From Dehalococcoidia bacterium (GTDB lineage: Bacteria; Chloroflexota; Dehalococcoidia; SZUA-161; SpSt-899): a stretch of DNA of 26,772 bases. Positions 1,850 through 26,772 of the stretch are shown one piece after another. Location of the stretch: the NCBI GenBank assembly GCA_023271515.1, contig JALPXQ010000008.1, positions 1 through 26,772 on the forward strand. Direction: 5' to 3'. Positions within the stretch are counted from its first letter, which is position 1. Every line of letters starts with the position of its first letter. The notes beneath the pieces were generated by a model, which did no database searches, was not told where the DNA came from, and was given only the letters and a program-made list of their open reading frames with translations. The position numbers and the translations under genes were made by a program.

Positions 1850-1918
1850 CCCCTAGAAGTGCCTCTGTGGTGGATAGCCACAATTTTGGGTCCGGCTTGT
1901 CCGGGATAGGAGGATAAA

Positions 1919-4872: not shown

Positions 4873-4875
4873 CGC

Positions 4876-5475
4876 CTACCCCTTCCGCATCATGTCCTCG
4901 ACTTCCTTGATGCCCCTGGAAATCCTCTCATCCAGGCCCTTTTCCTCAGTCTCTGCCTCCCCTTCCATTGTTTTTACAATTTCGTTGATGTCTCTATCAG
5001 AGAAACCTTCGGCACTCAAGATACCCTCGCTGGCCATGTCTAAAGTAGTGGACAACGCCTCGTCGATGCCCTCTGCCTGTGCCATCGCCTTCTCAAATTC
5101 CACCTGCATGCCGGCGATCTTTTCTACATCTGGGCCTTCGGTAATGGACTCGCTTATGTCCTTAGCAAAGGTTACAAAATCCCCGGAGATCTTGACCATC
5201 TCCCGTTGAAGTCTGGCCTCGTCCATCAGCAGGAGCATCCGCTGTCCCTTTCTTATCCGTTCCTGCAAGACCAGATATTTGGCAGCCTGCCTCTTCAAAA
5301 ACTTCTCTTCATTTAGTCTAGCCGCCTGCCTTCCCTGATCGTATATCGTCTTTTGCAGGTCCATCAGCTTCGAGATGTAGCCTTTAACCCTTGCTTTCGC
5401 CTTCCTGTACCTTATCTCCCTCTCGATCTCCTTCTCTTCCCTTGATTTTCCCTTCAACTTTTTCAATATGCCCAT
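4876..5475 (-). CDS. ESCRT-III/Snf7-like protein (copy 1). It is an all-helical protein of about 200 aa with a basic N-terminus and an acidic C-terminal tail.
   Basis: The N-terminus is MGILKKLKGKSREEK..., the sequence is predicted coiled coil, and the C-terminus is acidic (EGEAETEEKGLDERISRGIKEVEDMM, MIM-like). It is translationally coupled to the Vps4-like gene. There is a GGAG Shine-Dalgarno site 7 nt upstream of ATG 5475. Confidence 0.6.
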   Translation of the reverse strand: MGILKKLKGKSREEKEIEREIRYRKAKARVKGYISKLMDLQKTIYDQGRQAARLNEEKFLKRQAAKYLVLQERIRKGQRMLLLMDEARLQREMVKISGDFVTFAKDISESITEGPDVEKIAGMQVEFEKAMAQAEGIDEALSTTLDMASEGILSAEGFSDRDINEIVKTMEGEAETEEKGLDERISRGIKEVEDMMRKG

Positions 5476-5561: not shown

Positions 5562-6299
5562 TCAACCTTCAGCCTTCAGCCTATCCACCTGAGTAGCTAG
5601 GATTACAGTTATATTGTCCCTTCCGTCGGTCTCTTTCGCAGAGTTTATGAGCTTCTCGCAGGCTTCATCGAGGTCTTTTGAACTTATTATGATCCGTCTT
5701 ATTTCTTCACCCCGTAAGGAATCTGTCAATCCATCAGAGCACAACAACAGATATTGACCACAAATCCGGATCTCGTAGAGGTCAGGTTTTATATCGGCAT
5801 CCGTTCCCATCACCCTGGTAATGATATTCTTTTCCGGATGATCAAAGGCCTCCTCTTCTGAGATAATACCTCTATCCACCAGTTCTTGAACGAAGGAATG
5901 GTCCTTGGTCTGCTGCTTTATCTCCTCTCCTATCAGATAAGCCCTGCTGTCGCCTATATTTGCGATCACACATCTTTCTTCTTCAATCAAGGCAGCCACC
6001 AGCGTTGTGCCCATATTACTATAGTCTGGATTTTCCCGGGCTAAACTGTATATCTCCCTATTTGTCTTCTCAAAAGCCTGCTGAAGCAGCATCCTGAAGT
6101 CAGTAATCCCCTCGCTAAATCCTTTGTTCACCGCCTCTTCCAGCTCTATCACTGCCAGCCCACTGGCAATCTCGCCGGCGCTGTGCCCGCCCAGACCGTT
6201 GGCAACGGCAAGGAGGTAAATGTCGCCGAAGCGCGTTACCGCAAGGCTATCCTCGTTATTTGCTCTCTTCCCGCTGTCAGTAAGAGATGCTATCTTCAT
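5562..6299 (-). CDS. PP2C-family (PPM) Ser/Thr protein phosphatase.
   Basis: AVANGLGGHSAGEIAS, GTTLVAALI, ANIGDSRAY and LLCSDGLTD are the conserved PPM metal-binding motifs. Its start overlaps the kinase stop by 4 nt. Confidence 0.9.
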   Translation of the reverse strand: MKIASLTDSGKRANNEDSLAVTRFGDIYLLAVANGLGGHSAGEIASGLAVIELEEAVNKGFSEGITDFRMLLQQAFEKTNREIYSLARENPDYSNMGTTLVAALIEEERCVIANIGDSRAYLIGEEIKQQTKDHSFVQELVDRGIISEEEAFDHPEKNIITRVMGTDADIKPDLYEIRICGQYLLLCSDGLTDSLRGEEIRRIIISSKDLDEACEKLINSAKETDGRDNITVILATQVDRLKAEG

Positions 6300-8548: not shown

Positions 8549-8553
8549 CAATT

Positions 8554-15752: not shown

Positions 15753-17009
15753 TCAGCCTACCTTATATTCCCTGGCAGCCTCTATCAACTCCCTGAACAT
15801 CTCACCCTCTCCCGTTCCGCTTAATTCTTTGACTGCTTTTGGATACCAAGAAGCAAGCACAGTCTTCTTCCCTTTCAACACCTGGTCGAAGTCTTCCATC
15901 GTTATCTCTCTCCTGGGGGTCATCTCTTTGATCCTCTCCCCCAGGGGAATCATTGCCGCCTTCTCACAGATATCTGCGATCTCAGCGCTGGCATATCCCT
16001 CGGTGATCTCTGCCAGTCTCTGCAGACTGACTGATCTGGAGACAGGCTTATTCTTCAGATTTATCTCCAGGATTTTTTTGCGAGCCTCAATATCGGGATG
16101 GGGGAGGAAAACCGTTGTATCGAACCTCCCTGACCTTCTCAAAGCAACATCAACAGCCCAGGGGCGATTGGTAGCTGCAAGAACAAGATAGCGTTTAGTT
16201 GTGCCTTTCGCTTCCAGACCATCCATCTGTGATAACAGCTCGCTTACCAGGCTTCTCTCGTGCCCCTCCATTGACCCGGAGCGCTCCCCTGCCAGGGAGT
16301 CGAACTCATCGAAGAATAACATTGCCTTTTCATAGCTTCTGGCAACGTTGAAGATTTCCTTGATGTTTTTCTCGCTTTCTCCTACGTATTTGTCCTTGAT
16401 ATCGCTGCCTTTTAGACTGACGAAGGCTGCATCGGATTCGGCCGCCGCCGCCGCCGCGAGCATCGTTTTTCCGCATCCCGGAGGACCGTATAAGAGAATC
16501 CCCCCACCCGGTTTAACCCCAAAGTACTCGTACTCCTCCGGGTACTTGAAGGGATAAACAATTGCCTCCTTGATGTTCTCCTTTACTCTGGCTAAACCGG
16601 CGATATCGCTGAATCTTATCTTCGGTTTTTCCGCCAGGATCAGACCTTTAACCCTCTCCCCTGTCTTTTCTTTCTCTATCCTCCCCCCGGGTGTCTTTTT
16701 AACCCCTTCCTCCGGTGGTATCATGCCATCCGTATATACTTTAACAGTCCCTTCTTTGAGCCCCTCGGCGATCTCCCTGAATTTCTTGGATCTGTCCAGC
16801 AGCTCTTTTCGCTTATCCCTCGGTGACATATCTGCAAGATGCTCCAGGAATTTAGCGCACTTTAAGTACTCCACACTGGCTTTCGCCATGCTGCCTTCAT
16901 CATAGTGCCTCCTGGCCAGATTAAGGGATTTCTTATACTCGGCTTGGACCGCATCTCTCAGCTCCATACTTATTCCCTCCATAGTCGGGTTATCGGGTTC
17001 AGGGTTCAC
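15753..17009 (-). CDS. vps4: MIT-domain AAA+ ATPase, Vps4/CdvC-like (copy 2). The likely true start is ATG 16967 (MELRD...).
   Basis: It has an MIT-like N-terminus. It has Walker A GPPGCGKT, Walker B LFFDEFD, RSGRFDT and a Vps4-like C-terminus. The ORF-track start 17009 is GTG. An internal ATG at 16967 is preceded by GGAGGGA with a 6 nt spacer. Confidence 0.85.
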   Translation of the reverse strand: MNPEPDNPTMEGISMELRDAVQAEYKKSLNLARRHYDEGSMAKASVEYLKCAKFLEHLADMSPRDKRKELLDRSKKFREIAEGLKEGTVKVYTDGMIPPEEGVKKTPGGRIEKEKTGERVKGLILAEKPKIRFSDIAGLARVKENIKEAIVYPFKYPEEYEYFGVKPGGGILLYGPPGCGKTMLAAAAAAESDAAFVSLKGSDIKDKYVGESEKNIKEIFNVARSYEKAMLFFDEFDSLAGERSGSMEGHERSLVSELLSQMDGLEAKGTTKRYLVLAATNRPWAVDVALRRSGRFDTTVFLPHPDIEARKKILEINLKNKPVSRSVSLQRLAEITEGYASAEIADICEKAAMIPLGERIKEMTPRREITMEDFDQVLKGKKTVLASWYPKAVKELSGTGEGEMFRELIEAAREYKVG

Positions 17010-17106
17010 GGGTCACGGTTGATGGTTCACGGTTCATGGTTATTTGTCTAACCGTTCAATCTTGATCGCTCTAACCTTGAACCGTGAACCCCGGCAACTT
17101 TGAATC
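16987..17106. repeat. GGTTCA-rich inverted-repeat intergenic element (copy B), in the 5' region of the Vps4-like copy 2 gene.
   Basis: The sequence is gggttatcgggttcagggttcacgggtcacggttgatggttcacggttcatgg...taaccgttcaatcttgatcg...cttgaaccgtgaacc. The arms GGTTCACGGTTCA and TGAACCGTGAACC form a dyad. Confidence 0.7.
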
Positions 17107-17113
17107 TAAGCAG

Positions 17114-17743
17114 CTACAGCGTCTCTAACTCTTCTTCCTCCCTCTCTCTGGCAACTCTCTCTTTTAGCAGCCTCTCAGCTATCTGCTCAGCTTCGGCTTC
17201 ATTTGCCGTTTCCAAGACGTCCATGTATCTCTTTATCTCTTCGTCCTCCTTGGGTTTGGCAAGTAAGCCCAATTCTCCATCTAACATCTCAAGTAAGTTG
17301 TCCACATTCCCTTTCGCTATCTCATTCTGCAGGTTCACTTGTGCCAGAAACTTTTCCAGCTTACTCGCCGGTAGTTTGGTCAGCTTGGTCATTATGCCCT
17401 TATGTGCCAGCAACTCTTGGCTCTCCTGGGTGAAAACCAGATTGTCCACTACTCGAAGTTGGTCGTTGATGTTCTTCAGATACTTGTCGTCGAGTGCCAT
17501 CTCGCGCTCCAAACGCAGCATCTGCCTTGCAGTGCTCCTTTTCTTCGCCTCGCTGCTTTCTCCCGAGCCTTGTTTTATTAGCGCCCTGAACTGCTGAGAC
17601 GCCTTGTCAACCTTTGCTATCCTCAGCTTCTCTTCCCTTTCCAGCCTGATCCTTTCGGCTATCAGGTCATCCTTCTTCAGCTTCTCGAAGGGGTTTCCCT
17701 TTATTTTGTCCAGAATTCCCATTGTGTTTGCCTCCTTTTTCAT
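17114..17743 (-). CDS. ESCRT-III/Snf7-like protein (copy 2). The likely true start is ATG 17722 (MGILDKIKG...).
   Basis: An internal start MGILDKIKG mirrors MGILKKLKG of copy 1 and has an AAGGAGG Shine-Dalgarno site 8 nt upstream. It is all helical with an acidic C-terminus (AREREEEELETL). It lies directly upstream of Vps4-like copy 2. Confidence 0.6.
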   Translation of the reverse strand: MKKEANTMGILDKIKGNPFEKLKKDDLIAERIRLEREEKLRIAKVDKASQQFRALIKQGSGESSEAKKRSTARQMLRLEREMALDDKYLKNINDQLRVVDNLVFTQESQELLAHKGIMTKLTKLPASKLEKFLAQVNLQNEIAKGNVDNLLEMLDGELGLLAKPKEDEEIKRYMDVLETANEAEAEQIAERLLKERVAREREEEELETL

Positions 17744-18002: not shown

Positions 18003-18295
18003 TTAGCATTGACTTAGCATATTCTCGATGGCAATGCGCTCTTTCTCAAGGAGACCCAATGCTTCATACTCCCCAGCCCATATCATTGCCTCCTGATCGT
18101 CTCCATCAAGACCCTTCTCGAATTTCTTGAGAAATTCTTTGCTGCTCATTCCTGTACTCTGCTCAAAATCTCTCAGCTTCTTCCTTGTGGTAGAGATGCT
18201 CCTATCCAGCAAGAGCTTTTCTCTTTTAAGCGATGCTTCCAACACGCCAACCGCTGTCACAACATCTGGAACCTCAAGCTTTATCACACCCATAT
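18003..18295 (-). CDS. Small hypothetical protein of about 96 aa, the last gene of the six-gene operon.
   Basis: There is a GGAGGT Shine-Dalgarno site 6 nt upstream of ATG 18295 (MGVIKLEVPD...). It lies downstream of 18356-19978. The longer ORF-track start at 18359 is unlikely because it overlaps the upstream gene. Confidence 0.45.
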
Positions 18296-18355
18296 AATTA
18301 CCTCCTACTACCCTCATTTCATCTCCACCTGGTATGTAAGGATTCCCCAAAATTC

Positions 18356-19978
18356 TCACCTCAAATAGCCCCGCTCGAGTCTAACCGTATCTCCAACATC
18401 CACCCCCAGTATATCTCTCACCATCCTGTTGACCTTGATCACATCTCGATCACCGTCATCCAGCGGGCGAACGGTTACAAGATGTTCCCTGCCGGAAAAG
18501 ACAATTCTTGCCCGATCAATCCCTTGCAGACCCAGCCGTTCCATTATCTCTGGGTGAACCCGCACGACATTGCCGTATCTATCCTTCGGATGTGGATGGG
18601 TTACCCGCAGCAGTATCTCAACTGACTGGCTGCAAATTGTCTCCACCATATTGATTGGAATGCCGGTTTCAATTGATAATGCAAAGATCTCTTTTCTCAG
18701 TTGATCTCCCTTCACACCAGCCAACCGCTCCTGCATTTTCCTCAATTCTTCCGGTGCTATGTCAAATCTCTCCGATAGGCTCTTGCTATCTTTCCCTGTA
18801 ATCTTTTCAACGCCATCAGAGGTTTGGGATATGGTTTCAAGATCAGACAGGCTGTCCAGTAATTGTTGCATATGATTTCTCAACCCGGGAAGCTCTGTTT
18901 TCGCCATCGCCACATTCAAGATATCCCTTGCTCTTGCATAATGACGCAAGGACGCATCATCATCCCCGGTATGCCGCAGAAGGTCTGCAAGCAGCATCTC
19001 CTCATAGCCACCAAGTATCGTGCTGAGTGCATCTATCCCCGTTGCGATTTCGGTCTTACCTATCTTCTCAAAGTACAACCTGCTCGCCTCAAATGATGAT
19101 CTTGCCTGGCTGATCTCTGATTGTAGTAGAGATAGGTGATCATCATTGTGGCTTAACATCAGATGCATCAGTTGTGTCAGGTGGGCCCAGCCATTACAGA
19201 ACCTGCTGCTTGTAAATAACCCCTCCCTTGTCTCTTCCGAATCTGCATGGAGAGCTGCTTCATAATACATCTTTGCTGCCGCAAGGAAACGGTGCTTGGC
19301 AGCACGGTAATCCCCTTCTCTGTATGATGCTGCCCCCTCCTGCTCGTTATGGATTGCCATCTCGAGCGGCCTCTTTGTCTCAACGATCTCCTTTGCAGGT
19401 GTAACTATTATGTGGCGACCGATAGGTACTCGGAGGTAATCTTCAAAAGCCAGTCCGTACCTCTCCTCCAGGTAATCTCTCATTCCCTTTGGCAACTGAC
19501 CGAATACCGCATTCTTAGCGATCGGATCCATTGGGACCTGTTCACCAGTTGACTGCTGCAGCTCGATATACACGTGCTCTGGAAGGATCACAAAGATGGG
19601 TTCAAATCCGATGGAGCCGAGCATCGCGGCAAGCAGGATCGCCTGGTCATCACAATCCCCGGCGCTGACCTCCAGTGTCGCCACCGCCGGCTGGAAGTGA
19701 TCACCGGGCGGATCATTGATATACTCAATGTTGTCTCGCACCCAGAGAAAGATCGCCTCAGCCACCTTATTGCGATCCGCATCACTCATCCTCTTGACAT
19801 CAAGCGGCGCATCATAAATCTTCTTCACCACCTCGTATGCCGTCTTCCTTACAACAGGTTCTCGTGAGCCCCTTTTTGCCTGCTCAATCATCTCGGCTAC
19901 CTTCAGTATTTTCCTTGACGGCATAAAATTGAGGGAGCCGCAAGAGGTATCACCCGGGGATACTTTCCCATCTCTCAT
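18356..19978 (-). CDS. Transglutaminase-like cysteine protease domain protein. It has a central TPR-like helical region and a C-terminal Cdc48/VAT-N-like double-psi barrel segment.
   Basis: The transglutaminase-like core motif is SAGDCDDQAILLAAMLGSIGFEPIFV, with downstream His and Asp. The C-terminus NVVRVHPEIMERLGLQGIDRARIVFSGREHLVTVRPLDDGDRDVIKVNRMVRDILGVDVGDTVRLE resembles the Cdc48 N-domain. Confidence 0.6.
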   Translation of the reverse strand: MRDGKVSPGDTSCGSLNFMPSRKILKVAEMIEQAKRGSREPVVRKTAYEVVKKIYDAPLDVKRMSDADRNKVAEAIFLWVRDNIEYINDPPGDHFQPAVATLEVSAGDCDDQAILLAAMLGSIGFEPIFVILPEHVYIELQQSTGEQVPMDPIAKNAVFGQLPKGMRDYLEERYGLAFEDYLRVPIGRHIIVTPAKEIVETKRPLEMAIHNEQEGAASYREGDYRAAKHRFLAAAKMYYEAALHADSEETREGLFTSSRFCNGWAHLTQLMHLMLSHNDDHLSLLQSEISQARSSFEASRLYFEKIGKTEIATGIDALSTILGGYEEMLLADLLRHTGDDDASLRHYARARDILNVAMAKTELPGLRNHMQQLLDSLSDLETISQTSDGVEKITGKDSKSLSERFDIAPEELRKMQERLAGVKGDQLRKEIFALSIETGIPINMVETICSQSVEILLRVTHPHPKDRYGNVVRVHPEIMERLGLQGIDRARIVFSGREHLVTVRPLDDGDRDVIKVNRMVRDILGVDVGDTVRLERGYLR

Positions 19979-19990
19979 TTCATAATCCCC

Positions 19991-20227
19991 CTATTTCTTG
20001 TCCACCCTCGAGCCTATTTTGTATAAGATTGCGGCGAGAACGCCGCTGGCTAAGGCGCCGCCCACGGGGCCGCCTATGGCACTACCCAACGTCAAGCCGA
20101 GAGCGGTTCCAGTGGTCATACCAGCAACCTCAAAAAAGCCGTCAAACTCCTCTGGCTCGCCTTCAACATACCTATACTCAACAGCCTTAACCCATTCTAA
20201 ATGCTGATATATTATCTCGCTGTCCAT
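19991..20227 (-). CDS. Small membrane protein of 78 aa with a glycine-zipper TM segment.
   Basis: The C-terminal half is GTALGLTLGSAIGGPVGGALASGVLAAIL, made of GxxxG repeats. It is wedged between the SPFH gene and the transglutaminase-like gene, with a 6 nt gap to the SPFH gene and 12 nt to the transglutaminase-like gene. Confidence 0.5.
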   Translation of the reverse strand: MDSEIIYQHLEWVKAVEYRYVEGEPEEFDGFFEVAGMTTGTALGLTLGSAIGGPVGGALASGVLAAILYKIGSRVDKK

Positions 20228-20233
20228 CGTAAA

Positions 20234-22048
20234 TCACCCCCTATGCGCGATCGTAGCGCCACAATTCGTGCAGAACTTCGTGCCGACAGGCAACTCCACA
20301 TTACATCCGGTGCAGATAACGACCCTCTTTGTTTCCTGAGCCGGCGGTGAGGGTGTTCCACCTATTATTACCGGTTGCCCCTGTTGTCCGCCCGTTACTA
20401 CGGTTGTCCCTCCTGTCTGTGCTCGCGTAGAAGCTGTGGTCCCCATCTGTTCCAGTGCCTTTGCCGCCAGGCGCTCGATTCTATCTCCGCCTTTATCTGC
20501 CATCTCCTGTATTGTCTTAAGCATCTTATCCCTATCGCCAAGGCGATCCTCGTAAATGCTCATAATCTCCTCGGCACTCTTCGACTTATATCTCTCCTTG
20601 AATGCTTCAGCTATGGCAGCGCTGTCCCTCGCTCCAAGGGCAAGTATCTGCTCGTCTGTAAGGCCGGTGGCTAACTTCATTCTTGCCAGTTCGGTGAGGT
20701 GCTCTGCCTGTTTGCTCTCCACCATAGAAATGAGAGCCTCATCCGAAGCCGCAGAACGCACCTTAAGCCGCTGTTCCTCAAGCTCGGCTTCTTTCTGCAT
20801 CCGCTCAATCTCAAGTTTCTGATAGCCGGCCACATCCTCTCTTTTTGCTGCTTTCAAATCTCTCAGAGCTTTCAATCCCATATCCAGTTCTTCTCGATCT
20901 TGCTCCATCTCTAGCTCATGCGACTTTCGCCCCATCTCCAGTTCATGCAAACGCCGTTCAGCATCCATATCCAGCGCGTGTCTCTGTTCAACTCGTTTCA
21001 GCATCAAATCCCGTGCAAAGGCTCGATCCTGGCGATTCTCCTCAAATATTTGTTTGAGTTCAACCATCTCGTTCTCTTGAATGACCTTGCTCCTGTCGAG
21101 CTCGTGCAAGAACTTTTCAAGGTCTTCTGCATTCTGGAGTTCATTGATCTTATCAGCAGTGAGCCTTGCACGCATCCTCCTTGTGAGATCAAGCCGCCTA
21201 TCCGCAAGAGTTTCTCGCTCTTCATCCCTGGCGTATTCACCTCGCTCTCTGCGTATGGCTTCCCAGTAGCTTTCATCATAGTCGAAATATGAAAGATACA
21301 CCAGGTTAAGCCCGTTTCGACTGAGCGTTGTATCCAGGTGATGCCTGAAATCCTGCTCGATCTCCTTTTTCAATTCGAGATTGCCATACAACTCCTCGAA
21401 CGAATACTGCTTGATCTTTGATTGCAGTATATTCAGCAGCTCACTCCTCAACATCGCTTCAATATCTGTTATCAGTATCTCCTCTTTGGTTTTCATGAGG
21501 TTCTGGAAGAACAGTATCGGCTCCTCGATGTTCAGAACGACTTTCCCTCTCACCCCGGCATCGAAGTTCTCTCTTGTTCTCAGACCACCGATATTGAAAT
21601 TGAGTCCAACATCGGCGTCATCCACTAATATTATAGTTGCCCTCTCTGCCAGATTGAGATTCTTTATCATCGAGATAAGCCCCCCTACATTGTATCTCCC
21701 GGGCGGCAATTCCCCAAAGAACCTTCCTTCCTGCAAGACTATCGCCTTCGTTCCTGAGGTGATAGTTATGTTCTTGCTGAAGATCCCTTTGATGTCGCTG
21801 ACCTCCAATCTGCGCGCAAAGTCATTGGGACCTCTTTGCCAGGTGCTTATTTTGCCGGGGTCTTCCCTCTTTTCTACGAACTGGCTGCTCGCACCACAAC
21901 CGGGGCAGAACTTATATTCCGGCTCTATTGACCTGCCGCAGTTGCTGCAAACCGATTCAGAGAAGAGAGGGCTTCCACATTGCGAGCAGAATCTGCTCTT
22001 GGGATCACTCCTTACTCCACACTTGCTGCACGTTATTTTTTCAAACAT
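20234..22048 (-). CDS. Zinc-ribbon / SPFH (band-7/flotillin-like) / long coiled-coil / zinc-ribbon protein of 604 aa.
   Basis: The N-terminus has four CxxCG pairs (CSKCG, CSQCG, CSNCG, CPGCG). There is an SPFH-like segment (AIVLQEGRFFGELPPGRYNV...ILITDIEAMLRSELLNILQSKIKQYSFEELYGN). A coiled coil of about 250 aa is rich in E, R and A. The C-terminus is CTGCNVELPVGTKFCTNCG. There is a GGAGGA Shine-Dalgarno site 6 nt upstream of the ATG. Confidence 0.65.
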   Translation of the reverse strand: MFEKITCSKCGVRSDPKSRFCSQCGSPLFSESVCSNCGRSIEPEYKFCPGCGASSQFVEKREDPGKISTWQRGPNDFARRLEVSDIKGIFSKNITITSGTKAIVLQEGRFFGELPPGRYNVGGLISMIKNLNLAERATIILVDDADVGLNFNIGGLRTRENFDAGVRGKVVLNIEEPILFFQNLMKTKEEILITDIEAMLRSELLNILQSKIKQYSFEELYGNLELKKEIEQDFRHHLDTTLSRNGLNLVYLSYFDYDESYWEAIRRERGEYARDEERETLADRRLDLTRRMRARLTADKINELQNAEDLEKFLHELDRSKVIQENEMVELKQIFEENRQDRAFARDLMLKRVEQRHALDMDAERRLHELEMGRKSHELEMEQDREELDMGLKALRDLKAAKREDVAGYQKLEIERMQKEAELEEQRLKVRSAASDEALISMVESKQAEHLTELARMKLATGLTDEQILALGARDSAAIAEAFKERYKSKSAEEIMSIYEDRLGDRDKMLKTIQEMADKGGDRIERLAAKALEQMGTTASTRAQTGGTTVVTGGQQGQPVIIGGTPSPPAQETKRVVICTGCNVELPVGTKFCTNCGATIAHRG

Positions 22049-22136: not shown

Positions 22137-23297
22137 TTACTTTAGTTTTCCCCCACAAAAGGGGCAGGCGATCCACTCCGCTTCTACCTTCTGACCGCAT
22201 TGGGAGCACTTCAATTCAAGTTCGGTCCCGCAGAACGGACACATGCGCCACCCTTCTTGTAGTTTATTGTTGCATTTTGCACACCTCCTTTCAACATCAC
22301 TAGCATCTGCCCCACCACCTATCTCACTGCGCTGAACTATACTATCGCTCACCTCAATGCTTCTACCCTTCGTTGATGAGTCACCTGTCTTGCCAGTTTC
22401 CGCTGCGCCAACTGTGCTTCTTTGAATTACGCTATCTTTGATCTGCGTTGCTCCAGAAGATACAACTTCGCCGATTGACCCTATATCAACCTTTGTTACC
22501 GTTTTATCGGCCTCCATTACCTGAACTAAAAAATCCTTTTCGGCATGGTATTTTACTCCATTTACATCAATGCAGACCACATCCAAATTCAGGCTTACAA
22601 AACCACTTTCTCGTGTTCTTAGAACCGGCTGGATAACCACACTCTGGTTCGGCCTCAGGAACTCGGTGCAGACCAGTGTCTTATCCAGTTCAAACTTTGA
22701 ATTCTCTTTCAATGAGACGGTTATGCTTGCGATGTTTTCTTTGCTTATATTTTTGAAAATACAATCCAACGGCTTCCACTGCTCCTGTATCATTTCTTGT
22801 GCCTTCAGCTGGATACTCAGCGGACTGACATACACCTCCATCTCGTTCGAAAGCAGATCATCGAGTGAAAACTTGTTCTCGATCTCGCAGACTGCTCGTG
22901 TTGAAAAATGGCCGCCGGTATTGGCCCGGATTCGGTATTGATATTCTTTCTCTTCGCCCGGAGCTAGTTGGCATACCATATCAGGCATGTCCCCAATCAA
23001 CTCGAATTGTGGAGGGATTTCATCTGTGACAATGCAGTCTAACAGACCTGCTCGGCGCCGGCTTTGAAGTTTTATCGTTATAGTTATTGCCTCTCCGATT
23101 TCAATATATTTGTTTGAGCACACCTTGGAAAATGAAAGAATAGAGTCATCTCCCGATATCTTTGCGATCCCCTTTTGAATACCACTCACAACTGCGTCAA
23201 CTTTTGCTTTTTGGGTTGCGTCCTGAATCTTCTCTTTTATTCCGCTTGCATCTATTCTATCCTTCACTATCCTGGAGAAGTCTTTAATGTCCTTCAT
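22137..23297 (-). CDS. Protein with an N-terminal helical segment, beta-rich Ig-like middle domains and a C-terminal double zinc ribbon.
   Basis: The C-terminus is CAKCNNK...CPFCGTEL...CSQCGQK...CPFCGGKL. There is a GGAGGTGGAG Shine-Dalgarno site upstream of ATG 23297. The start overlaps the stop of the upstream gene (ATAATG). Confidence 0.55.
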   Translation of the reverse strand: MKDIKDFSRIVKDRIDASGIKEKIQDATQKAKVDAVVSGIQKGIAKISGDDSILSFSKVCSNKYIEIGEAITITIKLQSRRRAGLLDCIVTDEIPPQFELIGDMPDMVCQLAPGEEKEYQYRIRANTGGHFSTRAVCEIENKFSLDDLLSNEMEVYVSPLSIQLKAQEMIQEQWKPLDCIFKNISKENIASITVSLKENSKFELDKTLVCTEFLRPNQSVVIQPVLRTRESGFVSLNLDVVCIDVNGVKYHAEKDFLVQVMEADKTVTKVDIGSIGEVVSSGATQIKDSVIQRSTVGAAETGKTGDSSTKGRSIEVSDSIVQRSEIGGGADASDVERRCAKCNNKLQEGWRMCPFCGTELELKCSQCGQKVEAEWIACPFCGGKLK

Positions 23298-24871
23298 TAT
23301 CTCTCCACCTCCATCATACCTTTAATGATTGCGAATTCCTTCTCCGAGATCCTTTCTCTAATTCTCAGTGTGTCGGCCCCATTGGCGATAACAGAACGCT
23401 TGCGCGAAGAAGAACCAAGAATAGAATTACTGGATATGTGTCCCAGAAGCGCTAATTCAAGTTCCCGATCACTCATCAACCTGTTTGTCAGATTCTCCGT
23501 GAATAGAGCATCAAGCCCTTCCCGATGATCCCCCCCGCTGAATTTTGCAAGCAAGGATGAAGCAAGTGATTTCGACTCCTCTGTGACAGAGTTTGGTGGA
23601 AATATCATGAATCTCTGCGTTCCTGCTTTTTCATCCTTGAAAAGAGCAACGAAAGCTGGAATATATACCAAAAAGGAGCCCTGAGCATCTTCGGCCACGC
23701 CGGGTAAGGGCAGGCTGATACTTAATTCATTTATCCTGTCAGTCAGTGCGTTCTTTGCATTTATGATGTATGCCTCTTTAGCAGCCATGAATCTCTCGAG
23801 CAGACGCTCGACACTTTGCATCTTCTCCTTGAATTCATACCTGATGCTCTCTGTCTCATTGTCGAAATTCTCCACTTGCTCATCCAGAGCCAGCAGTTGA
23901 TTATGTAGTTCTGTTCTACGGTTTGCGGCTCTCTCTTTGATTTCTCTGATAGCCTTGTCTATATCCACCAACTGATTCTTACATTCGGTGATAGAGTCTT
24001 TAAGCCGTTCCACTTCACCGGAAGTGCTGGAGAGTTGTTTATTTAGCTGCTGAATCTTGTGTTCTACGGTCTTCCGGCGACCCATACGATCAGAGAGCAA
24101 ATTCTCCTCATCTTCGTCGTTATCCCTTTTCAATTGCTTTATCTCGGCCGCCTTTATCTTAAACGCATCTATCATCTCTCTCCGTTTCTTGTTCCTCATC
24201 ACCATCGTCTTTTCACATTCTTCGGAGAGATTTGCTATCAATAACTGGCTTCTTTGTGTTATTAGTTCCTGAATATCATCCAGGTGAGATGGCAAACTGG
24301 ACAATTTGTCCTCCTCGCACTCCAGCATCTGATGAATCTCTTCAACCTCCTTATTTTGCTCGAAGCTATCGGTGTCGAATAAGAAAACATCTGTGCTTTC
24401 CGTTTCAAAGACGGAGCCCAAAAGCTCCCTTAAATCGTCCAGAGCTTGTTTGCCAGGCAGCGACTCGAATGCTCGTGTATGCTCTTTAACCTCTGCAATC
24501 GATGCGACCAGTGTGGAAAGTCCCCTTATGAACTCATCATAGTCGGTCTCTGCTCGAGCGAATGTTTTCTCCAGAGATTCTAGATCGTGCACCACAATCT
24601 CCGGGAAGGATAAGATCTTCTTTTGTGCCAAAGCCTCATGCAAGATCACTATACCCCGTCCCCGGCGAGCATAAAAAGATATAAGAACGGGGATAGCCAA
24701 CTCTGCTATCCCCCTCACAATCTCCGCCGACTTCTTAAAGAGCCCACCACCCTTTTTGCTCCGGTGCACATTCAGCACCAACCTGGGCAGATATTCCGCT
24801 TCCGGCATCCTGCTTCCACTTGATATTGCAAAGTGAACTGACTTCATGTTTCCCCCTCTTATCAGGTTCAA
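23297..24871 (-). CDS. Coiled-coil protein of unknown function, the first gene of the six-gene operon. The likely true start is ATG 24847 (MKSVHF...).
   Basis: It is a 524 aa ORF with a long central coiled coil (residues about 200-380) and a C-terminal globular part. The ORF-track start 24871 is TTG. An internal ATG at 24847 has a G-rich Shine-Dalgarno site. Confidence 0.5.
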   Translation of the reverse strand: MNLIRGGNMKSVHFAISSGSRMPEAEYLPRLVLNVHRSKKGGGLFKKSAEIVRGIAELAIPVLISFYARRGRGIVILHEALAQKKILSFPEIVVHDLESLEKTFARAETDYDEFIRGLSTLVASIAEVKEHTRAFESLPGKQALDDLRELLGSVFETESTDVFLFDTDSFEQNKEVEEIHQMLECEEDKLSSLPSHLDDIQELITQRSQLLIANLSEECEKTMVMRNKKRREMIDAFKIKAAEIKQLKRDNDEDEENLLSDRMGRRKTVEHKIQQLNKQLSSTSGEVERLKDSITECKNQLVDIDKAIREIKERAANRRTELHNQLLALDEQVENFDNETESIRYEFKEKMQSVERLLERFMAAKEAYIINAKNALTDRINELSISLPLPGVAEDAQGSFLVYIPAFVALFKDEKAGTQRFMIFPPNSVTEESKSLASSLLAKFSGGDHREGLDALFTENLTNRLMSDRELELALLGHISSNSILGSSSRKRSVIANGADTLRIRERISEKEFAIIKGMMEVER

Positions 24872-25085: not shown

Positions 25086-26772
25086 TCATTTCATCAGCAC
25101 CCGCTTTGTAAGGGTTTCTATCTCTCTAATATGCTCTTCTTCGCCTGGTTCAATGCCCTTTTTCTGCCGGTGGTATATTCCTTGGATTACATTCTCGATC
25201 TGTGCCTTGTCTTCCTCTTTTGCGTAGCCTTTCAGAGCCGAGAGATTCTTCAACATCTCAGTGTAATCGCCATATTTCGCAGCAAGCAGAACCAGGTCAG
25301 CACAGAAGAGCCTTGATTTTGTGAGATCGCCACTTGAGGAGCTTTTTTTCAGTGATTCGGTCAGTTGGACTTTCAAATACCCGGCAAGTGCTCTCTGGAG
25401 CTCGGCAGCGCTTTGATAGCGATCCTCTTTCCTCTTCTGGAGGCACTTCATAATAATCGGCTCAACATCTTTTGCCCGCGGGTTTATCTCGGAAGGCAGA
25501 TCAGGCTCCTCGCCTACTATTGCACTGCTGATCTCCATAATAGAATCGCCCTCAAATGGCAGCCTGCCGGTTACAAGCTCATAGAAGATCACTCCCACTT
25601 GATAGTTATCAGTCCTTGGGTCAGGTCGGCCGAACTGCTTCGGGGCAACCTGTTCCGGGGTTGCATACAGGGGTGAAAAGCCTGTTATGCTCGATGATTT
25701 GCTCTCTGCCACTACTTTGCTGAGTCCCCAGTCTGAGATTTTGGGGGTTAAATCCCCGGTGAGCAAGACGTTCTGCGGCTTTAAGTCTCGATGGATAACC
25801 CCTTTATCGTGCGCATATTTCAACCCCGAGAGGATTTCAAAGATGATCCTGGCTGCCTCTTCGGCCTCCACCGGCTTGCTCAATGCTTCAAGGTTCCCCT
25901 TGTCTGCATACTCCATCTCGAAATATGGGATAGGCATTATGTTTACATCGTACAGTTGGATGATGTTCTCGTGCCTTAGCTCTTCCCATGCCTTGATCTC
26001 CTTGAGGAAGCTTCTGCCAGTCGCCTCGTCCAGGCTCAGGGGGACCTTCAGCGCTACGGTTCTGCCGTCGCTTACCCTCTTTGCCCGGAAAACCCTCGCA
26101 AAGCCACCCTTGCTGATGTATTTCACATCCCTGTATTTAGGCTGAAGCTCTGCCGGGAAGGTGGAGGGGGTTGTTGGACGGGGGGTAAACTCTGCCGGTC
26201 TTATCTCTTCTATAGTTTCAGCTTCCCCAACACTCAGGATGAACTCATTTGTGGTATCGTATGCCTCGCCATCCAGGTCTTCATATCTTATATCAACCTC
26301 CAGAGGAATCTCTCCCGCATTCTTTGGCATGAGCATAATACCCAATCGCTGCTCATCTCCGATATTAAGGTTCAATTCCCTCAATCCCTTGACCTCTACT
26401 TCCTTTGAGAAGCTTAAGCTTATCGCTTTTGCATGTGCAGTCCCCGTATTCTTCAGGAGTATATCTACCTTCTCCCAGTAATTTGGTCTGAAGTTATGCT
26501 TTGTCAGGTGTAATGTAATCTCAGGCCTTGCGCCCGCTTTTAATGTTTTTGATTGCTCTATGGCATTCTTTGCAATAGTGATCCCCTCTTTATAATTGCC
26601 GGCAGAAACTGCTGATCTTGCTTGGTTCAATAGCTCTTCAGCTTCTGTAACCTCGCAGCCAAGCCTCTTTGCATCCCCTATCGCCGATTCTGCGGATTTT
26701 ATCTGGTTGTTTAGCTCATTGAAATCGGTCAATCTTCCTTCGATCCGTTCATTCGCTTCTTTTGCAATAGTG
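25086..26772 (-). CDS. Hanks-type Ser/Thr protein kinase paralog. Its N-terminus has a helical repeat and an Ig/CARDB-like beta-sandwich. The 5' end runs off the window.
   Basis: Kinase motifs are KGGFARVF, VALK, HRDLKPQNVLL, DWGLSK and YATPEQ. The C-terminal tail motif EDRYQS..EL is shared with kinase 1. The reading frame is open to the window end (TIAKEANERIEG... upstream of the annotated start). Confidence 0.85.
   Translation of the reverse strand, partial: TIAKEANERIEGRLTDFNELNNQIKSAESAIGDAKRLGCEVTEAEELLNQARSAVSAGNYKEGITIAKNAIEQSKTLKAGARPEITLHLTKHNFRPNYWEKVDILLKNTGTAHAKAISLSFSKEVEVKGLRELNLNIGDEQRLGIMLMPKNAGEIPLEVDIRYEDLDGEAYDTTNEFILSVGEAETIEEIRPAEFTPRPTTPSTFPAELQPKYRDVKYISKGGFARVFRAKRVSDGRTVALKVPLSLDEATGRSFLKEIKAWEELRHENIIQLYDVNIMPIPYFEMEYADKGNLEALSKPVEAEEAARIIFEILSGLKYAHDKGVIHRDLKPQNVLLTGDLTPKISDWGLSKVVAESKSSSITGFSPLYATPEQVAPKQFGRPDPRTDNYQVGVIFYELVTGRLPFEGDSIMEISSAIVGEEPDLPSEINPRAKDVEPIIMKCLQKRKEDRYQSAAELQRALAGYLKVQLTESLKKSSSSGDLTKSRLFCADLVLLAAKYGDYTEMLKNLSALKGYAKEEDKAQIENVIQGIYHRQKKGIEPGEEEHIREIETLTKRVLMK

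What the first reader, a model, noticed from the sequence alone, without database searches (positions are those of the whole stretch)
20234..22048. Zinc-ribbon-flanked SPFH/flotillin-like protein
The architecture is 4x CxxCG (a double zinc ribbon), then an SPFH-like domain, then a coiled coil of about 250 aa rich in E, R and A that resembles flotillin EA-repeats, then a terminal CxxC...CxxCG ribbon. No TM helix is evident. The zinc ribbons may therefore mediate membrane or partner attachment in place of the usual N-terminal hairpin. This is an unusual SPFH variant.
Basis: partly seen in the sequence, partly recalled or inferred. Interest (0 to 1): 0.6.

Follow-up and report, generated by a model that had tools for sequence, protein, structure and literature searches.

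The report
Zinc-ribbon SPFH scaffold of archaeal ESCRT locus
The gene encodes a real, membrane-anchor-less SPFH (stomatin/flotillin-type) scaffold protein capped by zinc ribbons. It belongs to a family described by comparative genomics in 2024 as a component of archaeal ESCRT-like membrane-remodelling gene clusters, so it is a new member of a known, untested kind rather than a new kind of protein.

Summary

It is not an oddity. A profile search finds 707 clusters at E<=1e-30, almost all without a TM segment and with terminal ribbons. It is 31% identical over its full length to the Methanocorpusculum parvum protein encoded beside Vps4, most likely the member of arCOG15283 ("SPFH family protein, ESCRT system component", Makarova et al. 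2024).

The window carries the matching context: a Snf7-like gene plus an MIT-AAA ATPase, a second helical-hairpin protein plus AAA pair, an adaptin-appendage-like zinc-ribbon protein, a coiled-coil protein, two Ser/Thr kinases and a PP2C phosphatase.

The NfeD/glycine-zipper partner idea is not supported. The 78-aa ORF is conserved but travels with the transglutaminase gene.

Most likely mechanism (inferred): a peripheral SPFH ring or cage, docked through zinc-ribbon-bearing partners, that localises ESCRT-III-like polymers, as B. subtilis YdjI does for PspA.

Verdict: new member of a known kind; moderate interest.

The parts
20234..22048 (-). SPFH-zinc-ribbon protein, 604 aa (the finding)
21977..22030 (-). 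N-terminal zinc ribbon 1 (aa 7-24, CSKCG...FCSQCG)
   Evidence: Cysteines conserved in at least 90% of 23 homologues.
21896..21949 (-). N-terminal zinc ribbon 2 (aa 34-51, CSNCG...FCPGCG)
   Evidence: C34, C37, C48 and C51 are invariant in all 23 sequences of A1.
21236..21841 (-). SPFH/Band-7 domain with its beta-rich N-terminal extension (aa about 70-271)
20420..21235 (-). Helical / coiled-coil region (aa 272-543), with a conserved 'LT-EQILAL-A-DS' motif at aa about 463-482
   Evidence: AF2 secondary structure, including helix 342-433; composition; E466, Q467, A470, A473, S476, A480 and A482 conserved even in 24-30% identical homologues.
20324..20419 (-). Low-complexity Gly/Thr/Val/Pro linker (aa 544-575, 'GGTTVVTGG..PVIIGG')
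   Evidence: pLDDT below 50; T548, T549, V551, G554 and P559 invariant in the close set.
20261..20314 (-). C-terminal zinc ribbon (aa 579-596, CTGCN...FCTNCG)
   Evidence: invariant in A2.
22137..23297 (-). 386-aa adaptor-like protein: beta-rich body, 'KDSVIQRS' motifs, C-terminal double zinc ribbon
   Evidence: Pfam DZR and Zn_ribbon_3. Gene order cc524-adZn386-SPFH is kept in L010 and L019. The L019 orthologue has weak TRAP_beta (E=6.9e-4) and Alpha_adaptinC2 (E=9e-4) hits. Tail motif.
23297..24871 (-). 524-aa coiled-coil protein, first gene of the tight cluster (overlaps the next gene by 1 nt)
   Evidence: Only weak SMC-like and coiled-coil hits. Orthologues lie directly upstream of the adaptor gene in L010 and L019.
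19991..20227 (-). 78-aa glycine-zipper small membrane protein
   Evidence: One hydrophobic segment at aa 50-68. Conserved in L007 and L010, always immediately upstream of the transglutaminase gene.
18356..19978 (-). 540-aa transglutaminase-core + CDC48_N (VAT-N-like) protein
   Evidence: Pfam Transglut_core E=4.1e-7 and CDC48_N E=3.6e-10; orthologues in L007 and L010.
18003..18359 (-). [quoted passage not shown]
   Evidence: TumA-like (E=5e-8, below cut-off) and PADLOC PDC-M44A (E=8.7e-9) hits; homologue in L025.
17114..17743 (-). 209-aa all-helical hairpin protein, candidate divergent ESCRT-III
   Evidence: No Pfam hit. At least 152 archaeal homologues, none with Pfam annotation. AF2 pLDDT 82 with hairpin 24-60/65-107. 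Foldseek gives nothing significant, but 20 of the top 50 hits are ESCRT-III superfamily proteins. Homologues lie next to SPFH and AAA genes in L002, L020 and L029.
15753..17009 (-). 418-aa single-domain AAA+ ATPase downstream of the hairpin protein (Vps4/CdvC-like by position)
   Evidence: Pfam AAA plus AAA_lid_3. The CdvC model scores 224.8 bits, below its cut-off and about equal to the CDC48 and PAN models. No MIT hit, but the test was insensitive because the positive control also failed.
4876..5475 (-). 199-aa Snf7/ESCRT-III-like protein
   Evidence: Snf7 E=0.14 over 150 aa for the window protein. Its L002 homologue (E=7.5e-25 to it) scores Snf7 E=3.6e-6, 27.2 bits against a cut-off of 27.3. 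Three family members carry precomputed PF03357. The only PDB profile hit is CHMP3, E=0.27.
3793..4872 (-). 359-aa MIT + AAA ATPase (Vps4 architecture)
   Evidence: AAA E=1.3e-43. N-terminal aa 7-69 match the whole MIT model at E=6e-4; the L002 homologue scores MIT E=0.033.
25086..26732 (-). 548-aa Ser/Thr protein kinase heading the gene array
   Evidence: Pkinase E=1.4e-43. Kinases flank SPFH-ribbon genes in L002, L004, L005, L018, L020, L033 and L035.
5562..8551 (-). 751-aa Ser/Thr kinase and 245-aa PP2C phosphatase
   Evidence: Pkinase E=7.9e-43; PP2C_2 E=3.9e-16.

Best explanation
What it is. The ORF encodes a cytoplasmic SPFH/Band-7 scaffold protein without a TM segment. It belongs to the family that Makarova et al. 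(2024) defined as arCOG15283, 'SPFH family protein, ESCRT system component'. It sits in a same-strand gene array that encodes an archaeal ESCRT-like membrane-remodelling or sorting system:
- a Snf7-like protein plus an MIT-AAA (Vps4-type) ATPase;
- a second hairpin-protein/AAA pair;
- an adaptin-appendage-like adaptor ending in zinc ribbons;
- a coiled-coil protein;
- Ser/Thr kinases and a PP2C phosphatase.

How it most likely works:
1. [Inferred from every solved SPFH assembly] The SPFH domain and the long helices oligomerise into a ring or cage on the cytoplasmic face of the membrane.
2. [Inferred from context] Lacking its own hairpin, the protein is held at the membrane and coupled to clients through proteins that carry the same terminal zinc ribbon. 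These are ribbon+TM proteins in Methanoregula relatives and ribbon-tailed adaptors here. The three ribbons would therefore be docking modules.
3. [Inferred by analogy with B. subtilis YdjI, a TM-less Band-7 protein with a C-terminal zinc finger that needs YdjG/YdjH and is required to bring PspA to the membrane] The scaffold marks the site where the ESCRT-III-like polymer assembles. The AAA ATPase then remodels that polymer.
4. [Inferred] Kinase/phosphatase signalling switches the system.

Shown here: domain architecture, SPFH fold, absence of a TM segment, family membership by homology, and the conserved neighbourhood. Not shown: oligomeric state, membrane binding, any interaction, any phenotype.
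For: Identity:
- Pfam Band_7 above cut-off plus three ribbons.
- Model and fold matches to stomatin, flotillin, prohibitin, HflK/C, erlin and QmcA.
- No TM segment.

Family:
- 31% identity, E=8e-77, end to end with the M. parvum protein at L029 5599-7203. That protein has the same ribbons-SPFH-helices-ribbon order and lies beside a 385-aa AAA ATPase.
- The paper lists M. parvum WP_095642223 as arCOG15283 and WP_095642221 as Vps4. It describes the family as SPFH plus coiled coil plus zinc ribbon.

ESCRT context in the window:
- Snf7-like p199 and MIT-AAA aaa359.
- Hairpin protein e3_209 next to a second AAA.
- An adaptor orthologue with TRAP_beta and Alpha_adaptinC2 hits.

Context elsewhere:
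- L002: kinase, 218-aa e3_209 homologue, AAA, Snf7, MIT-AAA, 150-aa protein, SPFH-ribbon gene.
- L020: SPFH-ribbon gene, kinases, two e3_209-like genes, AAA.
- L029 and L033.

Ribbon docking idea:
- Ribbon-bearing ORFs number 2.19 per 10 kb within 2.5 kb of the gene, against 0.33 per 10 kb at 5-10 kb.
- The partner proteins differ between clades.
- Ribbon plus two-TM neighbour in Methanoregula.

Analogy:
- YdjG has two zinc ribbons plus a TM segment (PMC11237479).
Against: - Most Methanoregula loci show no AAA or ESCRT-III-like gene within 10 kb of the SPFH gene, so the link is not obligatory or acts in trans.
- In the window the better-supported Snf7/MIT-AAA pair is 15 kb from the SPFH gene.
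- The nearer pair is weakly supported. e3_209 has no significant sequence or fold match to ESCRT-III. The 418-aa AAA domain scores as well against CDC48 and PAN models as against CdvC.
- The L029 protein comes from a MAG of M. parvum. I could not confirm that it is the very accession listed in the paper.
- I never obtained the type example, M. zhilinae WP_013898576 (428 aa, SPFH at 1-212, no N-terminal ribbons), for direct comparison.
- Zinc ribbons are common in these archaea, and the loci used for the enrichment count are partly related by descent.
- Nothing here tests oligomerisation or membrane binding.
Confidence: 0.55

Rival explanations
1. The protein is part of a kinase-centred conflict (anti-virus / abortive-infection) system. 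The multi-kinase arrays sense invasion. The SPFH-ribbon scaffold, the AAA ATPases and the ESCRT-III-like proteins are the membrane-directed effector or repair arm. On this reading it is not a housekeeping sorting machine.
For: - Across the wider family the most constant neighbours are Ser/Thr kinases, many fused to FGE-sulfatase (C-type-lectin-fold) domains: L004, L005, L033, L035.
- L005 carries a bAvd gene, an accessory of diversity-generating retroelements.
- L004 carries a caspase-like Peptidase_C14 and an M4 peptidase. L002 carries Peptidase_U49.
- The window has a transglutaminase-fold protein and a small protein that matches PADLOC candidate PDC-M44A / TumA.
- FGE-sulfatase (FGS) effector domains and kinase/PP2C themes are typical of the conflict systems described in PMC7159879.
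Against: - PADLOC has no model matching the SPFH protein, the adaptor, the hairpin protein or the transglutaminase protein.
- The IetA and TRIP13 hits of the AAA ATPase are generic AAA similarity.
- There is no phage or plasmid homologue, and PHROG hits cover only the ribbons.
- The window kinases lack FGE-sulfatase domains.
- No toxin-like effector was recognised in the window.
- PMC7159879 does not describe this system.
Confidence: 0.2
2. The protein is an autonomous SPFH microdomain scaffold, like stomatin, HflK/C or QmcA, that regulates a membrane protease, channel or transporter. Its adjacency to ESCRT-like genes has no functional meaning.
For: - The fold matches HflK/C, stomatin, prohibitin, erlin and QmcA equally well.
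- The Methanoregula loci keep the gene with only a ribbon+TM neighbour and lack nearby AAA or ESCRT-III-like genes.
Against: - No NfeD, FtsH or other protease partner appears among 17 window proteins scanned.
- There is no TM segment or hairpin, unlike HflK/C, stomatin, prohibitin and QmcA.
- Association with Snf7-like and AAA genes recurs in at least four separate contexts, including a bacterial one: the window, L002, L020 and L029, plus an AAA with a weak Vps4_C hit in L033.
- The tight cluster cc524-adaptor-SPFH is conserved.
Confidence: 0.15
3. The protein forms a soluble, vault-like cage. SPFH is the 'shoulder' domain of the major vault protein, so the protein would assemble a closed particle in the cytoplasm with no membrane role.
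For: - No TM segment in 144 of 145 family members inspected.
- The protein has long helices comparable to the vault cap-helix.
Against: - The vault matches are weaker than those to all membrane SPFH families and cover only the SPFH and helix part.
- There are no MVP repeat domains.
- Neighbours with TM segments and ESCRT-III-like proteins point to the membrane.
Confidence: 0.03

Closest known systems
arCOG15283, 'SPFH family protein, ESCRT system component' of the Meth_adaptin archaeal ESCRT systems (Makarova et al., mBio 2024, PMC10936438)
   Same: - SPFH + coiled coil + zinc ribbon architecture.
- Euryarchaeal (Methanosarcinales and Methanomicrobiales) distribution.
- Full-length homology to the M. 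parvum representative: 31% identity, E=8e-77.
- Neighbourhood with Vps4-type AAA, ESCRT-III-type proteins, an adaptin-appendage-like ribbon protein and a coiled-coil protein.
   Different: - The type example from M. zhilinae is 428 aa with SPFH at residues 1-212, so it has no N-terminal double ribbon. The window protein has two N-terminal ribbons and a longer helical region.
- The window locus adds Ser/Thr kinases and PP2C, which the paper assigns to its 'main' and Halo_FHA clades rather than Meth_adaptin. It also adds a transglutaminase/CDC48_N protein and a second AAA/hairpin pair.
- It lacks the ProX and GOLD-domain genes.
- The family has no experimental characterisation.
Bacillus subtilis YdjI (with YdjG, YdjH and PspA)
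   Same: - A Band-7/SPFH protein with no membrane anchor, a low-complexity stretch and a C-terminal zinc finger.
- It needs separately encoded membrane proteins. One of them, YdjG, starts with two zinc ribbons.
- It is required to bring an ESCRT-III-superfamily protein (PspA) to the membrane (PMC8581546, PMC11237479).
   Different: - Sequence relationship not tested, because no YdjI sequence was available in the tools.
- YdjI lacks the N-terminal double ribbon; in Bacillus those ribbons sit on YdjG.
- The partner there is PspA without an AAA ATPase. Here the partners are Snf7-like and hairpin proteins paired with AAA ATPases and kinases.
Flotillins (eukaryotic flotillin-1/2; bacterial FloT)
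   Different: - No flotillin-family Pfam hit.
- No hairpin or lipidation-type anchor.
- The helical region is charged (E/R/K/D plus A/L) but is not the flotillin EA-repeat family by any test run.
- Stomatin, prohibitin, erlin and HflK/C match as well as flotillin does.
SPFH-NfeD operon pairs (stomatin PH1511/PH1510, QmcA-YbbJ)
   Same: An SPFH protein followed immediately by a small membrane-protein gene.
   Different: The 78-aa ORF has no NfeD or OB-fold signal. It tracks with the transglutaminase gene, not the SPFH gene. The SPFH protein has no TM segment.

Membership tests
SPFH / Band-7 superfamily (PF01145) | Significant match to the family profile above the curated cut-off | tested here: met
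   E=6.6e-8; 33.2 bits against a cut-off of 23.6; aa 95-271. Most homologues carry precomputed PF01145.
SPFH / Band-7 superfamily (PF01145) | Alpha/beta SPFH fold followed by long helices | tested here: met
SPFH / Band-7 superfamily (PF01145) | N-terminal TM helix or hairpin anchoring the protein (typical, not universal) | tested here: not met
   Highest 19-residue hydropathy 1.18. 144 of 145 relatives also lack such a segment.
SPFH / Band-7 superfamily (PF01145) | Homo- or hetero-oligomeric ring or cage | not testable with these tools
   Only monomer prediction was available. Needs a multimer model or cryo-EM.
arCOG15283 (SPFH component of archaeal ESCRT systems, PMC10936438) | SPFH + coiled coil + zinc ribbon architecture | tested here: met
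.
arCOG15283 (SPFH component of archaeal ESCRT systems, PMC10936438) | Sequence homology to a listed member | tested here: met
   31% identity, E=8e-77, full length, to the M. parvum protein in L029. M. parvum WP_095642223 is listed in arCOG15283. Caveat: L029 is a MAG of that species, so identity with the listed accession was not verified.
arCOG15283 (SPFH component of archaeal ESCRT systems, PMC10936438) | Encoded with a Vps4-type ATPase and an ESCRT-III protein | tested here: met
   The Snf7-like p199 plus MIT-AAA aaa359 lie on the same strand in the window, although 15 kb away. The nearer pair, e3_209 plus the 418-aa AAA, is only suggestive. The same linkage is seen in L002, L020 and L029.
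arCOG15283 (SPFH component of archaeal ESCRT systems, PMC10936438) | Adaptin-appendage-like (arCOG15284) neighbour, one form of which ends in a zinc ribbon | tested here: inconclusive
   The 386-aa neighbour has the C-terminal double ribbon. Its L019 orthologue gives sub-threshold TRAP_beta (E=6.9e-4) and Alpha_adaptinC2 (E=9e-4) hits. The window protein itself gives neither. No structure was predicted for it.
Flotillin family | Flotillin-specific C-terminal (Flot / EA-repeat) region and hairpin or acylation anchor | tested here: not met
   No flotillin-family hit among the Pfam results at E<=0.1. No hydrophobic hairpin. Fold similarity is no better than to other SPFH families.
SPFH-NfeD pair | Adjacent NfeD-family gene (TM segments plus OB-fold domain) | tested here: not met
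   No NfeD hit in any of 17 window proteins. The 78-aa ORF has only a sub-threshold Gly-zipper hit and co-occurs with the transglutaminase gene.
YdjI-type Band-7 proteins of PspA operons | TM-less Band-7 protein with a C-terminal zinc ribbon, linked to an ESCRT-III-superfamily gene and to a ribbon+TM partner | tested here: inconclusive
   The architecture and logic match the literature. A ribbon+TM neighbour is present in Methanoregula relatives but not in the window. Direct sequence comparison with YdjI was not possible.

The most novel reading that the evidence does not exclude
The terminal zinc ribbon works as a docking or sorting tag. In the adaptors it is often preceded by a short 'KDSVVQRS' motif. 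The tag would plug a variable set of proteins into a cage built by the TM-less SPFH-ribbon protein. The tagged proteins include Ig/adaptin-like, TPR, Sel1 and beta-propeller proteins, peptidases, FGE-sulfatase-domain proteins and small TM proteins. The cage in turn nucleates Snf7-type filaments that an MIT-AAA ATPase remodels, under multi-kinase control. On this reading the module is not confined to archaea. A contig with an ECF sigma factor and a GGDEF cyclase (L002) carries Snf7 + MIT-AAA + SPFH-ribbon genes together. That would be a bacterial ESCRT-like machine, which current reviews say bacteria lack.
Probability: 0.2. Interest if true: 0.75.

Novelty: new member of a known kind. Interest (0 to 1): 0.38.

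Why it matters
SPFH cages (flotillin, stomatin, prohibitin, HflK/C) and ESCRT-III filaments are two ancient membrane-organising systems whose functional link is poorly understood. This family joins them genetically in archaea and apparently in some bacteria. It does so with a protein that lacks its own membrane anchor, which makes the recruitment step experimentally separable.

The family is large: 707 clusters at 50% identity. It has a clean modular architecture and no experimental data. A single localisation or pull-down study in a tractable methanogen would test whether SPFH scaffolds position ESCRT-III polymers, and what the very common prokaryotic 'CxxCG...FCxxCG' ribbons actually bind.

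For this window specifically, the result is mainly a correct annotation. The gene is the SPFH component of an ESCRT-like, kinase-associated locus. It is not a new class of protein.

Tried and rejected
1. NfeD or glycine-zipper partner: rejected. There is no NfeD signal, and the ORF follows the transglutaminase gene.
2. Specific flotillin membership: rejected.
3. Known defence system: PADLOC gives nothing for the SPFH protein.
4. Viral or plasmid origin: tblastn against phage and plasmid collections finds nothing, and PHROG hits are ribbon-only.
5. Sequence-profile search of the PDB with the family alignment finds only zinc-ribbon proteins, no SPFH. Sequence alone is too divergent; fold search was needed.
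6. Proving that the 209-aa hairpin protein is ESCRT-III: not achieved.
   - Pfam gave nothing.
   - The best relevant PDB profile hit was CdvB at E=0.53.
   - hhalign against the Snf7-like family gave probability 7%.
   - The best Foldseek hit was E=0.56.
   It remains a candidate only.
7. Discriminating Vps4 from CDC48 for the two AAA ATPases by PDB and NCBIfam scores: uninformative. The MIT test worked for the 359-aa protein only; the M. parvum Vps4 positive control also failed.
8. The first genome scan with the 23-sequence alignment failed because it had no conserved stretch. It was repeated with the 14 closer sequences.
9. Extending the left flank to settle the organism: the exact-product look-up found nothing, and the window has no tRNA.
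Full report
**1. The observation**

The ORF at 20234..22048 (-) is real and 604 aa long. All twelve cysteines fall in six CxxC motifs. Four CxxCG motifs form two N-terminal zinc ribbons (aa 7-24 and 34-51). Two further motifs form a C-terminal ribbon (aa 579-596). Pfam reports Zn_Ribbon_1 (E=1.1e-15) and DZR (E=4.1e-13). It also reports Band_7/SPFH at E=6.6e-8, 33.2 bits against a curated cut-off of 23.6, over aa 95-271.

An AlphaFold2 model built on 23 homologues is confident (pLDDT 80-91) from aa 70 to about 430. It shows:
- a beta-rich segment;
- the alpha/beta SPFH core;
- helices from about aa 260 to 543, including one 92-residue helix;
- a disordered Gly/Thr/Pro linker;
- the C-terminal ribbon.

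No 19-residue window exceeds a Kyte-Doolittle mean of 1.18, so there is no TM helix or hairpin.

**2. How common it is**

The word-indexed search found 112 homologues. Named ones come from Methanosarcinales, Methanoregula, Methanomicrobiales and 'Euryarchaeota'. The 98%-identical cluster is labelled Dehalococcoidia.

The exhaustive profile search finds many more: 707 clusters (50% identity) at E<=1e-30 and 3,102 at E<=1e-10. The top 150 are mostly full-length matches of 500-890 aa. I inspected 145 of these:
- 96 have both N- and C-terminal ribbons;
- 32 have an N-terminal ribbon only;
- 16 have a C-terminal ribbon only;
- 1 has a TM-like segment.

The TM-less ribbon-SPFH-helix-ribbon design is therefore a large, conserved family, not a rare variant. 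The double N-terminal ribbon is a feature of the methanogen-related clade.

**3. Published precedent**

Makarova et al. (mBio 2024, PMC10936438) describe euryarchaeal 'Meth_adaptin' ESCRT systems. [quoted passage not shown] They created arCOG15283 for it. Members come from Methanosalsum, Methanococcoides, Methanohalophilus, Methanocorpusculum, a haloarchaeon and marine group II.

My genome scan recovered a Methanocorpusculum parvum locus, L029. There a 534-548-aa protein with the same ribbons-SPFH-helices-ribbon order is encoded next to two small helical proteins and near a 385-aa AAA ATPase. It aligns with the window protein end to end: 31% identity, E=8e-77. The paper lists M. parvum WP_095642223 as arCOG15283 and WP_095642221 as Vps4.

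I therefore file the window protein in this family. Two caveats apply. L029 is a MAG of the species, so identity with the listed accession is unverified. And I could not obtain the shorter M. zhilinae type sequence (428 aa, SPFH at 1-212) for direct comparison.

**4. The neighbourhood in the window**

Every gene from 26732 down to 3793 is on the minus strand. In transcription order the array is:
- Ser/Thr kinase (548 aa);
- a 524-aa coiled-coil protein, overlapping the next gene by 1 nt;
- a 386-aa protein ending in a double ribbon; an 88-nt gap follows;
- the SPFH protein; a 6-nt gap follows;
- the 78-aa glycine-zipper protein; a 12-nt gap follows;
- a transglutaminase-core + CDC48_N protein, overlapping the next gene by 4 nt;
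- a 118-aa protein;
- a 209-aa helical protein;
- a 418-aa AAA ATPase;
- a CARDB/PKD surface protein;
- a TM protein with MIT-like repeats;
- a second kinase, then PP2C;
- a 199-aa protein;
- a 359-aa AAA ATPase.

The 199-aa protein is Snf7-like:
- its own Snf7 hit is E=0.14 over 150 residues;
- its L002 homologue (E=7.5e-25 to it) scores E=3.6e-6, 27.2 bits against a cut-off of 27.3;
- three family members carry precomputed PF03357;
- the only PDB hit of the family profile is CHMP3.

The adjacent 359-aa ATPase has an N-terminal match to the whole MIT model (E=6e-4), which is the Vps4 architecture.

The 209-aa protein belongs to an unannotated archaeal family of at least 152 members. It models confidently as a long helical hairpin plus short helices. 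It has no significant sequence or fold match. ESCRT-III-superfamily structures make up 20 of the top 50 Foldseek hits, but the best E-value is 0.56. I call it a candidate divergent ESCRT-III, no more.

The orthologue of the 386-aa protein in L019 gives sub-threshold TRAP_beta and Alpha_adaptinC2 hits. These are the families the paper used to name arCOG15284.

**5. Conservation of the neighbourhood**

I ran phmmer with the window proteins against ORFs of the 31 loci fetched by that point.
- The order coiled-coil protein, adaptor, SPFH is kept in an ANME-2c MAG (L010) and another archaeal MAG (L019).
- The glycine-zipper ORF recurs in L007 and L010, always directly upstream of the transglutaminase gene. 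In L010 that is 4.7 kb away from the SPFH gene. It is therefore that gene's partner, not an NfeD-like partner of SPFH. No NfeD hit exists anywhere in the window.
- A Methanoregulaceae locus (L020) has the SPFH-ribbon gene, kinases, two hairpin-protein genes and an AAA.
- A distant homologue (P0107, 30% identity) lies in the order kinase, hairpin-protein homologue, AAA, Snf7, MIT-AAA, 150-aa protein, SPFH-ribbon gene, then three N-terminal-ribbon proteins and more kinases. That contig also encodes an ECF sigma factor (71.6 bits, above cut-off) and a GGDEF cyclase, so it is bacterial.
- Still more distant members sit among arrays of kinases fused to FGE-sulfatase domains, with AAA ATPases: L004, L005, L033, L035.
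- Most Methanoregula loci lack AAA or ESCRT-III-like genes within 10 kb.

**6. The zinc ribbons**

ORFs of at least 120 aa that carry the same 'CxxCG..[FYW]CxxCG' ribbon cluster around the SPFH gene:

| Distance from the SPFH gene | Ribbon-bearing ORFs per 10 kb |
|---|---|
| within 2.5 kb | 2.19 |
| 2.5-5 kb | 0.97 |
| 5-10 kb | 0.33 |

The ribbon-bearing proteins differ by clade:
- Ig/adaptin-like TM proteins (L006);
- TPR and Sel1-like proteins (L029);
- a beta-propeller/CARDB protein (L024);
- DUF4384, FGE-sulfatase and Peptidase_U49 proteins (L002);
- in the Methanoregula/Methanomicrobiales loci examined (14 records, L001 and L014 being the same contig), a small gene just upstream on the opposite strand with an N-terminal ribbon. 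The copy read in full (L001) has the ribbon followed by two TM helices.

Many C-terminal-ribbon partners also share a short 'KDSV[VI]QRS' motif 15-35 residues before the ribbon, including the window's 386-aa protein.

The evidence is contextual only, and the loci are partly related by descent.

**7. Mechanism and analogy**

The closest experimentally studied analogue is B. subtilis YdjI. [quoted passage not shown] It needs the membrane proteins YdjG and YdjH to reach the membrane, and it is required for PspA (ESCRT-III superfamily) foci (PMC8581546). YdjG carries two zinc ribbons and a TM segment (PMC11237479).

The window protein looks like YdjI with YdjG-style double ribbons fused on. I therefore propose:
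- (a) ring or cage formation by the SPFH domain and helices, as in all solved SPFH assemblies;
- (b) peripheral attachment and client coupling through ribbon-bearing partners;
- (c) positioning of Snf7-like or hairpin-protein polymers, which the MIT-AAA and AAA ATPases remodel;
- (d) control by kinase and PP2C.

Steps (a) to (d) are all inferences.

My confidence by step:

| Claim | Confidence |
|---|---|
| Identity as an SPFH protein of the arCOG15283 type | about 0.9 |
| Functional ESCRT link | about 0.6 |
| Ribbon-docking step | about 0.4 |

**8. Rivals**

- A kinase-centred conflict system with a membrane effector arm. It is suggested by the kinase/FGE-sulfatase arrays, a bAvd gene, caspase-like and other peptidases, and a PDC-M44A/TumA-like small protein. 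It is weakened by the absence of PADLOC, phage or plasmid matches.
- An autonomous SPFH scaffold unrelated to ESCRT. It is suggested by the Methanoregula loci. It is weakened by the recurrent Snf7/AAA linkage in separate lineages and by the lack of NfeD or a protease partner.
- A soluble vault-like cage. Fold support is weak.

**9. Source organism**

The window equals the 26,772-bp contig that carries MCL0059177.1, labelled 'Dehalococcoidia bacterium'. Eight MAGs with that label share the protein at 90% identity or more.

Every component's nearest relatives outside that cluster are archaeal or carry doubtful MAG labels: ANME-2c, Ethanoperedens, 'Halobacteria' MAGs, Hydrothermarchaeales and Argoarchaeum.

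The left flank (1-3400) has 55-60% GC against about 48% for the locus. It holds an HdrA2-like gene scoring 400 bits against the Methanosarcina-type HdrA2 model, together with frameshifted or truncated metabolic genes.

I lean towards an archaeal origin or a transferred island, but this is unresolved.

**10. Verdict**

The finding is real and correctly described at the domain level. It is a new member of a family already defined computationally as an archaeal ESCRT component. Its interest is moderate. The family is large and experimentally untouched, and it links SPFH scaffolds to ESCRT-III. The more novel leads are side observations: the ribbon-tagged partner set, the unannotated hairpin family, and a bacterial Snf7 + MIT-AAA + SPFH locus.

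Noticed in passing
window 3793-5475 (-): An ESCRT-III/Vps4-type pair lies 15 kb from the finding. It is a 199-aa Snf7-like protein followed by a 359-aa AAA ATPase whose N-terminus matches the whole MIT model (E=6e-4). Together with the nearer hairpin-protein/AAA pair at 15753-17743, the window holds two filament-candidate/ATPase pairs. Bacterial locus L002 also has both.
   Followed up: yes
window 17114-17743 (-): The 209-aa protein belongs to an unannotated archaeal family: at least 152 homologues, about 200 aa each, no Pfam hit. It models as a long helical hairpin plus short helices and always sits just upstream of an AAA ATPase. It may be an unrecognised divergent ESCRT-III family, but no sequence or fold match is significant.
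   Followed up: partly
window 22137-23297 (-), aa 287-385; also L006, L008, L009, L020, L024, L025, L029: Neighbours of the SPFH gene share a tail. It is a short 'KDSV[VI]QRS(x)IG' motif, once or twice, 15-35 residues before a terminal zinc ribbon. The proteins are otherwise unrelated (Ig/adaptin-like, TPR, Sel1, beta-propeller). It looks like a common docking tail and I found no description of it in the literature searched.
   Followed up: partly
L001 9345-9950 (-), and the same position in L011-L018, L020-L022 and L028: In the Methanoregula/Methanomicrobiales loci examined, the gene transcribed divergently from the SPFH gene encodes a small protein with an N-terminal zinc ribbon. The copy read in full (L001) follows the ribbon with a linker and two TM helices of TM2-domain-like sequence. 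This arrangement resembles the ribbon+TM protein YdjG of B. subtilis.
   Followed up: partly
L002 3102-11731 (contig CAZNGS010000020.1 of GCA_964572825.1): A contig with an ECF sigma-70 factor and a GGDEF/HDOD protein, so bacterial, encodes in order: kinase, hairpin-protein homologue, AAA, Snf7 (E=3.6e-6), MIT-AAA (aligned to almost the whole CdvC model), a 150-aa protein, the SPFH-ribbon protein. Recent reviews state that Vps4-like ATPases paired with Snf7 are absent from bacteria.
   Followed up: partly
L004, L005, L033/L034, L035: Distant SPFH-ribbon homologues sit in arrays of three to six Ser/Thr kinases. Many of the kinases are fused to FGE-sulfatase (C-type-lectin-fold) domains. An HTH_17 gene lies directly upstream of the SPFH gene in L004 and L035. 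L005 has a bAvd gene, which hints at a diversity-generating retroelement. L004 has a caspase-like peptidase.
   Followed up: no
window 1-4000: GC content falls from 55-60% (1-4000) to about 48% across the ESCRT-like locus. The left flank holds broken genes: a GltD-like fragment (21-476) out of frame with an HdrA2-like ORF (470-1849); an enoyl-CoA hydratase split into 1919-2317 and 2321-2689; and a 118-aa stub of ADP-forming acetyl-CoA synthetase (2686-3042). The contig is labelled Dehalococcoidia in NCBI, but the locus has archaeal affinities. Mis-binning, a chimeric contig or inter-domain transfer could each explain this.
   Followed up: partly
window 18356-20227 (-): A 540-aa protein joins a transglutaminase-like core to a C-terminal CDC48_N (VAT-N-type) domain. 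It is always preceded by the 78-aa glycine-zipper ORF (window, L007, L010). In haloarchaeal ESCRT-like loci the VAT-N domain is fused to the ATPase itself; here it is on a separate protein.
   Followed up: partly
window 10043-11653 (-): A 536-aa protein has an N-terminal TM segment and repeats that match DUF4398 and the NRBF2 MIT domain (E about 1e-6). It may be a membrane-anchored MIT-like repeat protein inside an ESCRT-like locus. A homologue lies next to the SPFH/transglutaminase genes in L007.
   Followed up: no
window 12596-15631 (-): A 1011-aa CARDB/PKD surface protein contains two nearly identical copies of a segment of about 115 aa ('PTITSAHPSPSTA...RHLASRTFT'). The gene spans a GC dip to 40% at 13001-14000.
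   Followed up: no
window 18003-18359 (-): The 118-aa protein just upstream of the hairpin-protein gene matches the antitoxin TumA model (E=5e-8, below cut-off) and PADLOC candidate PDC-M44A (E=8.7e-9). The published archaeal ESCRT loci have a winged-helix protein in this position.
   Followed up: no
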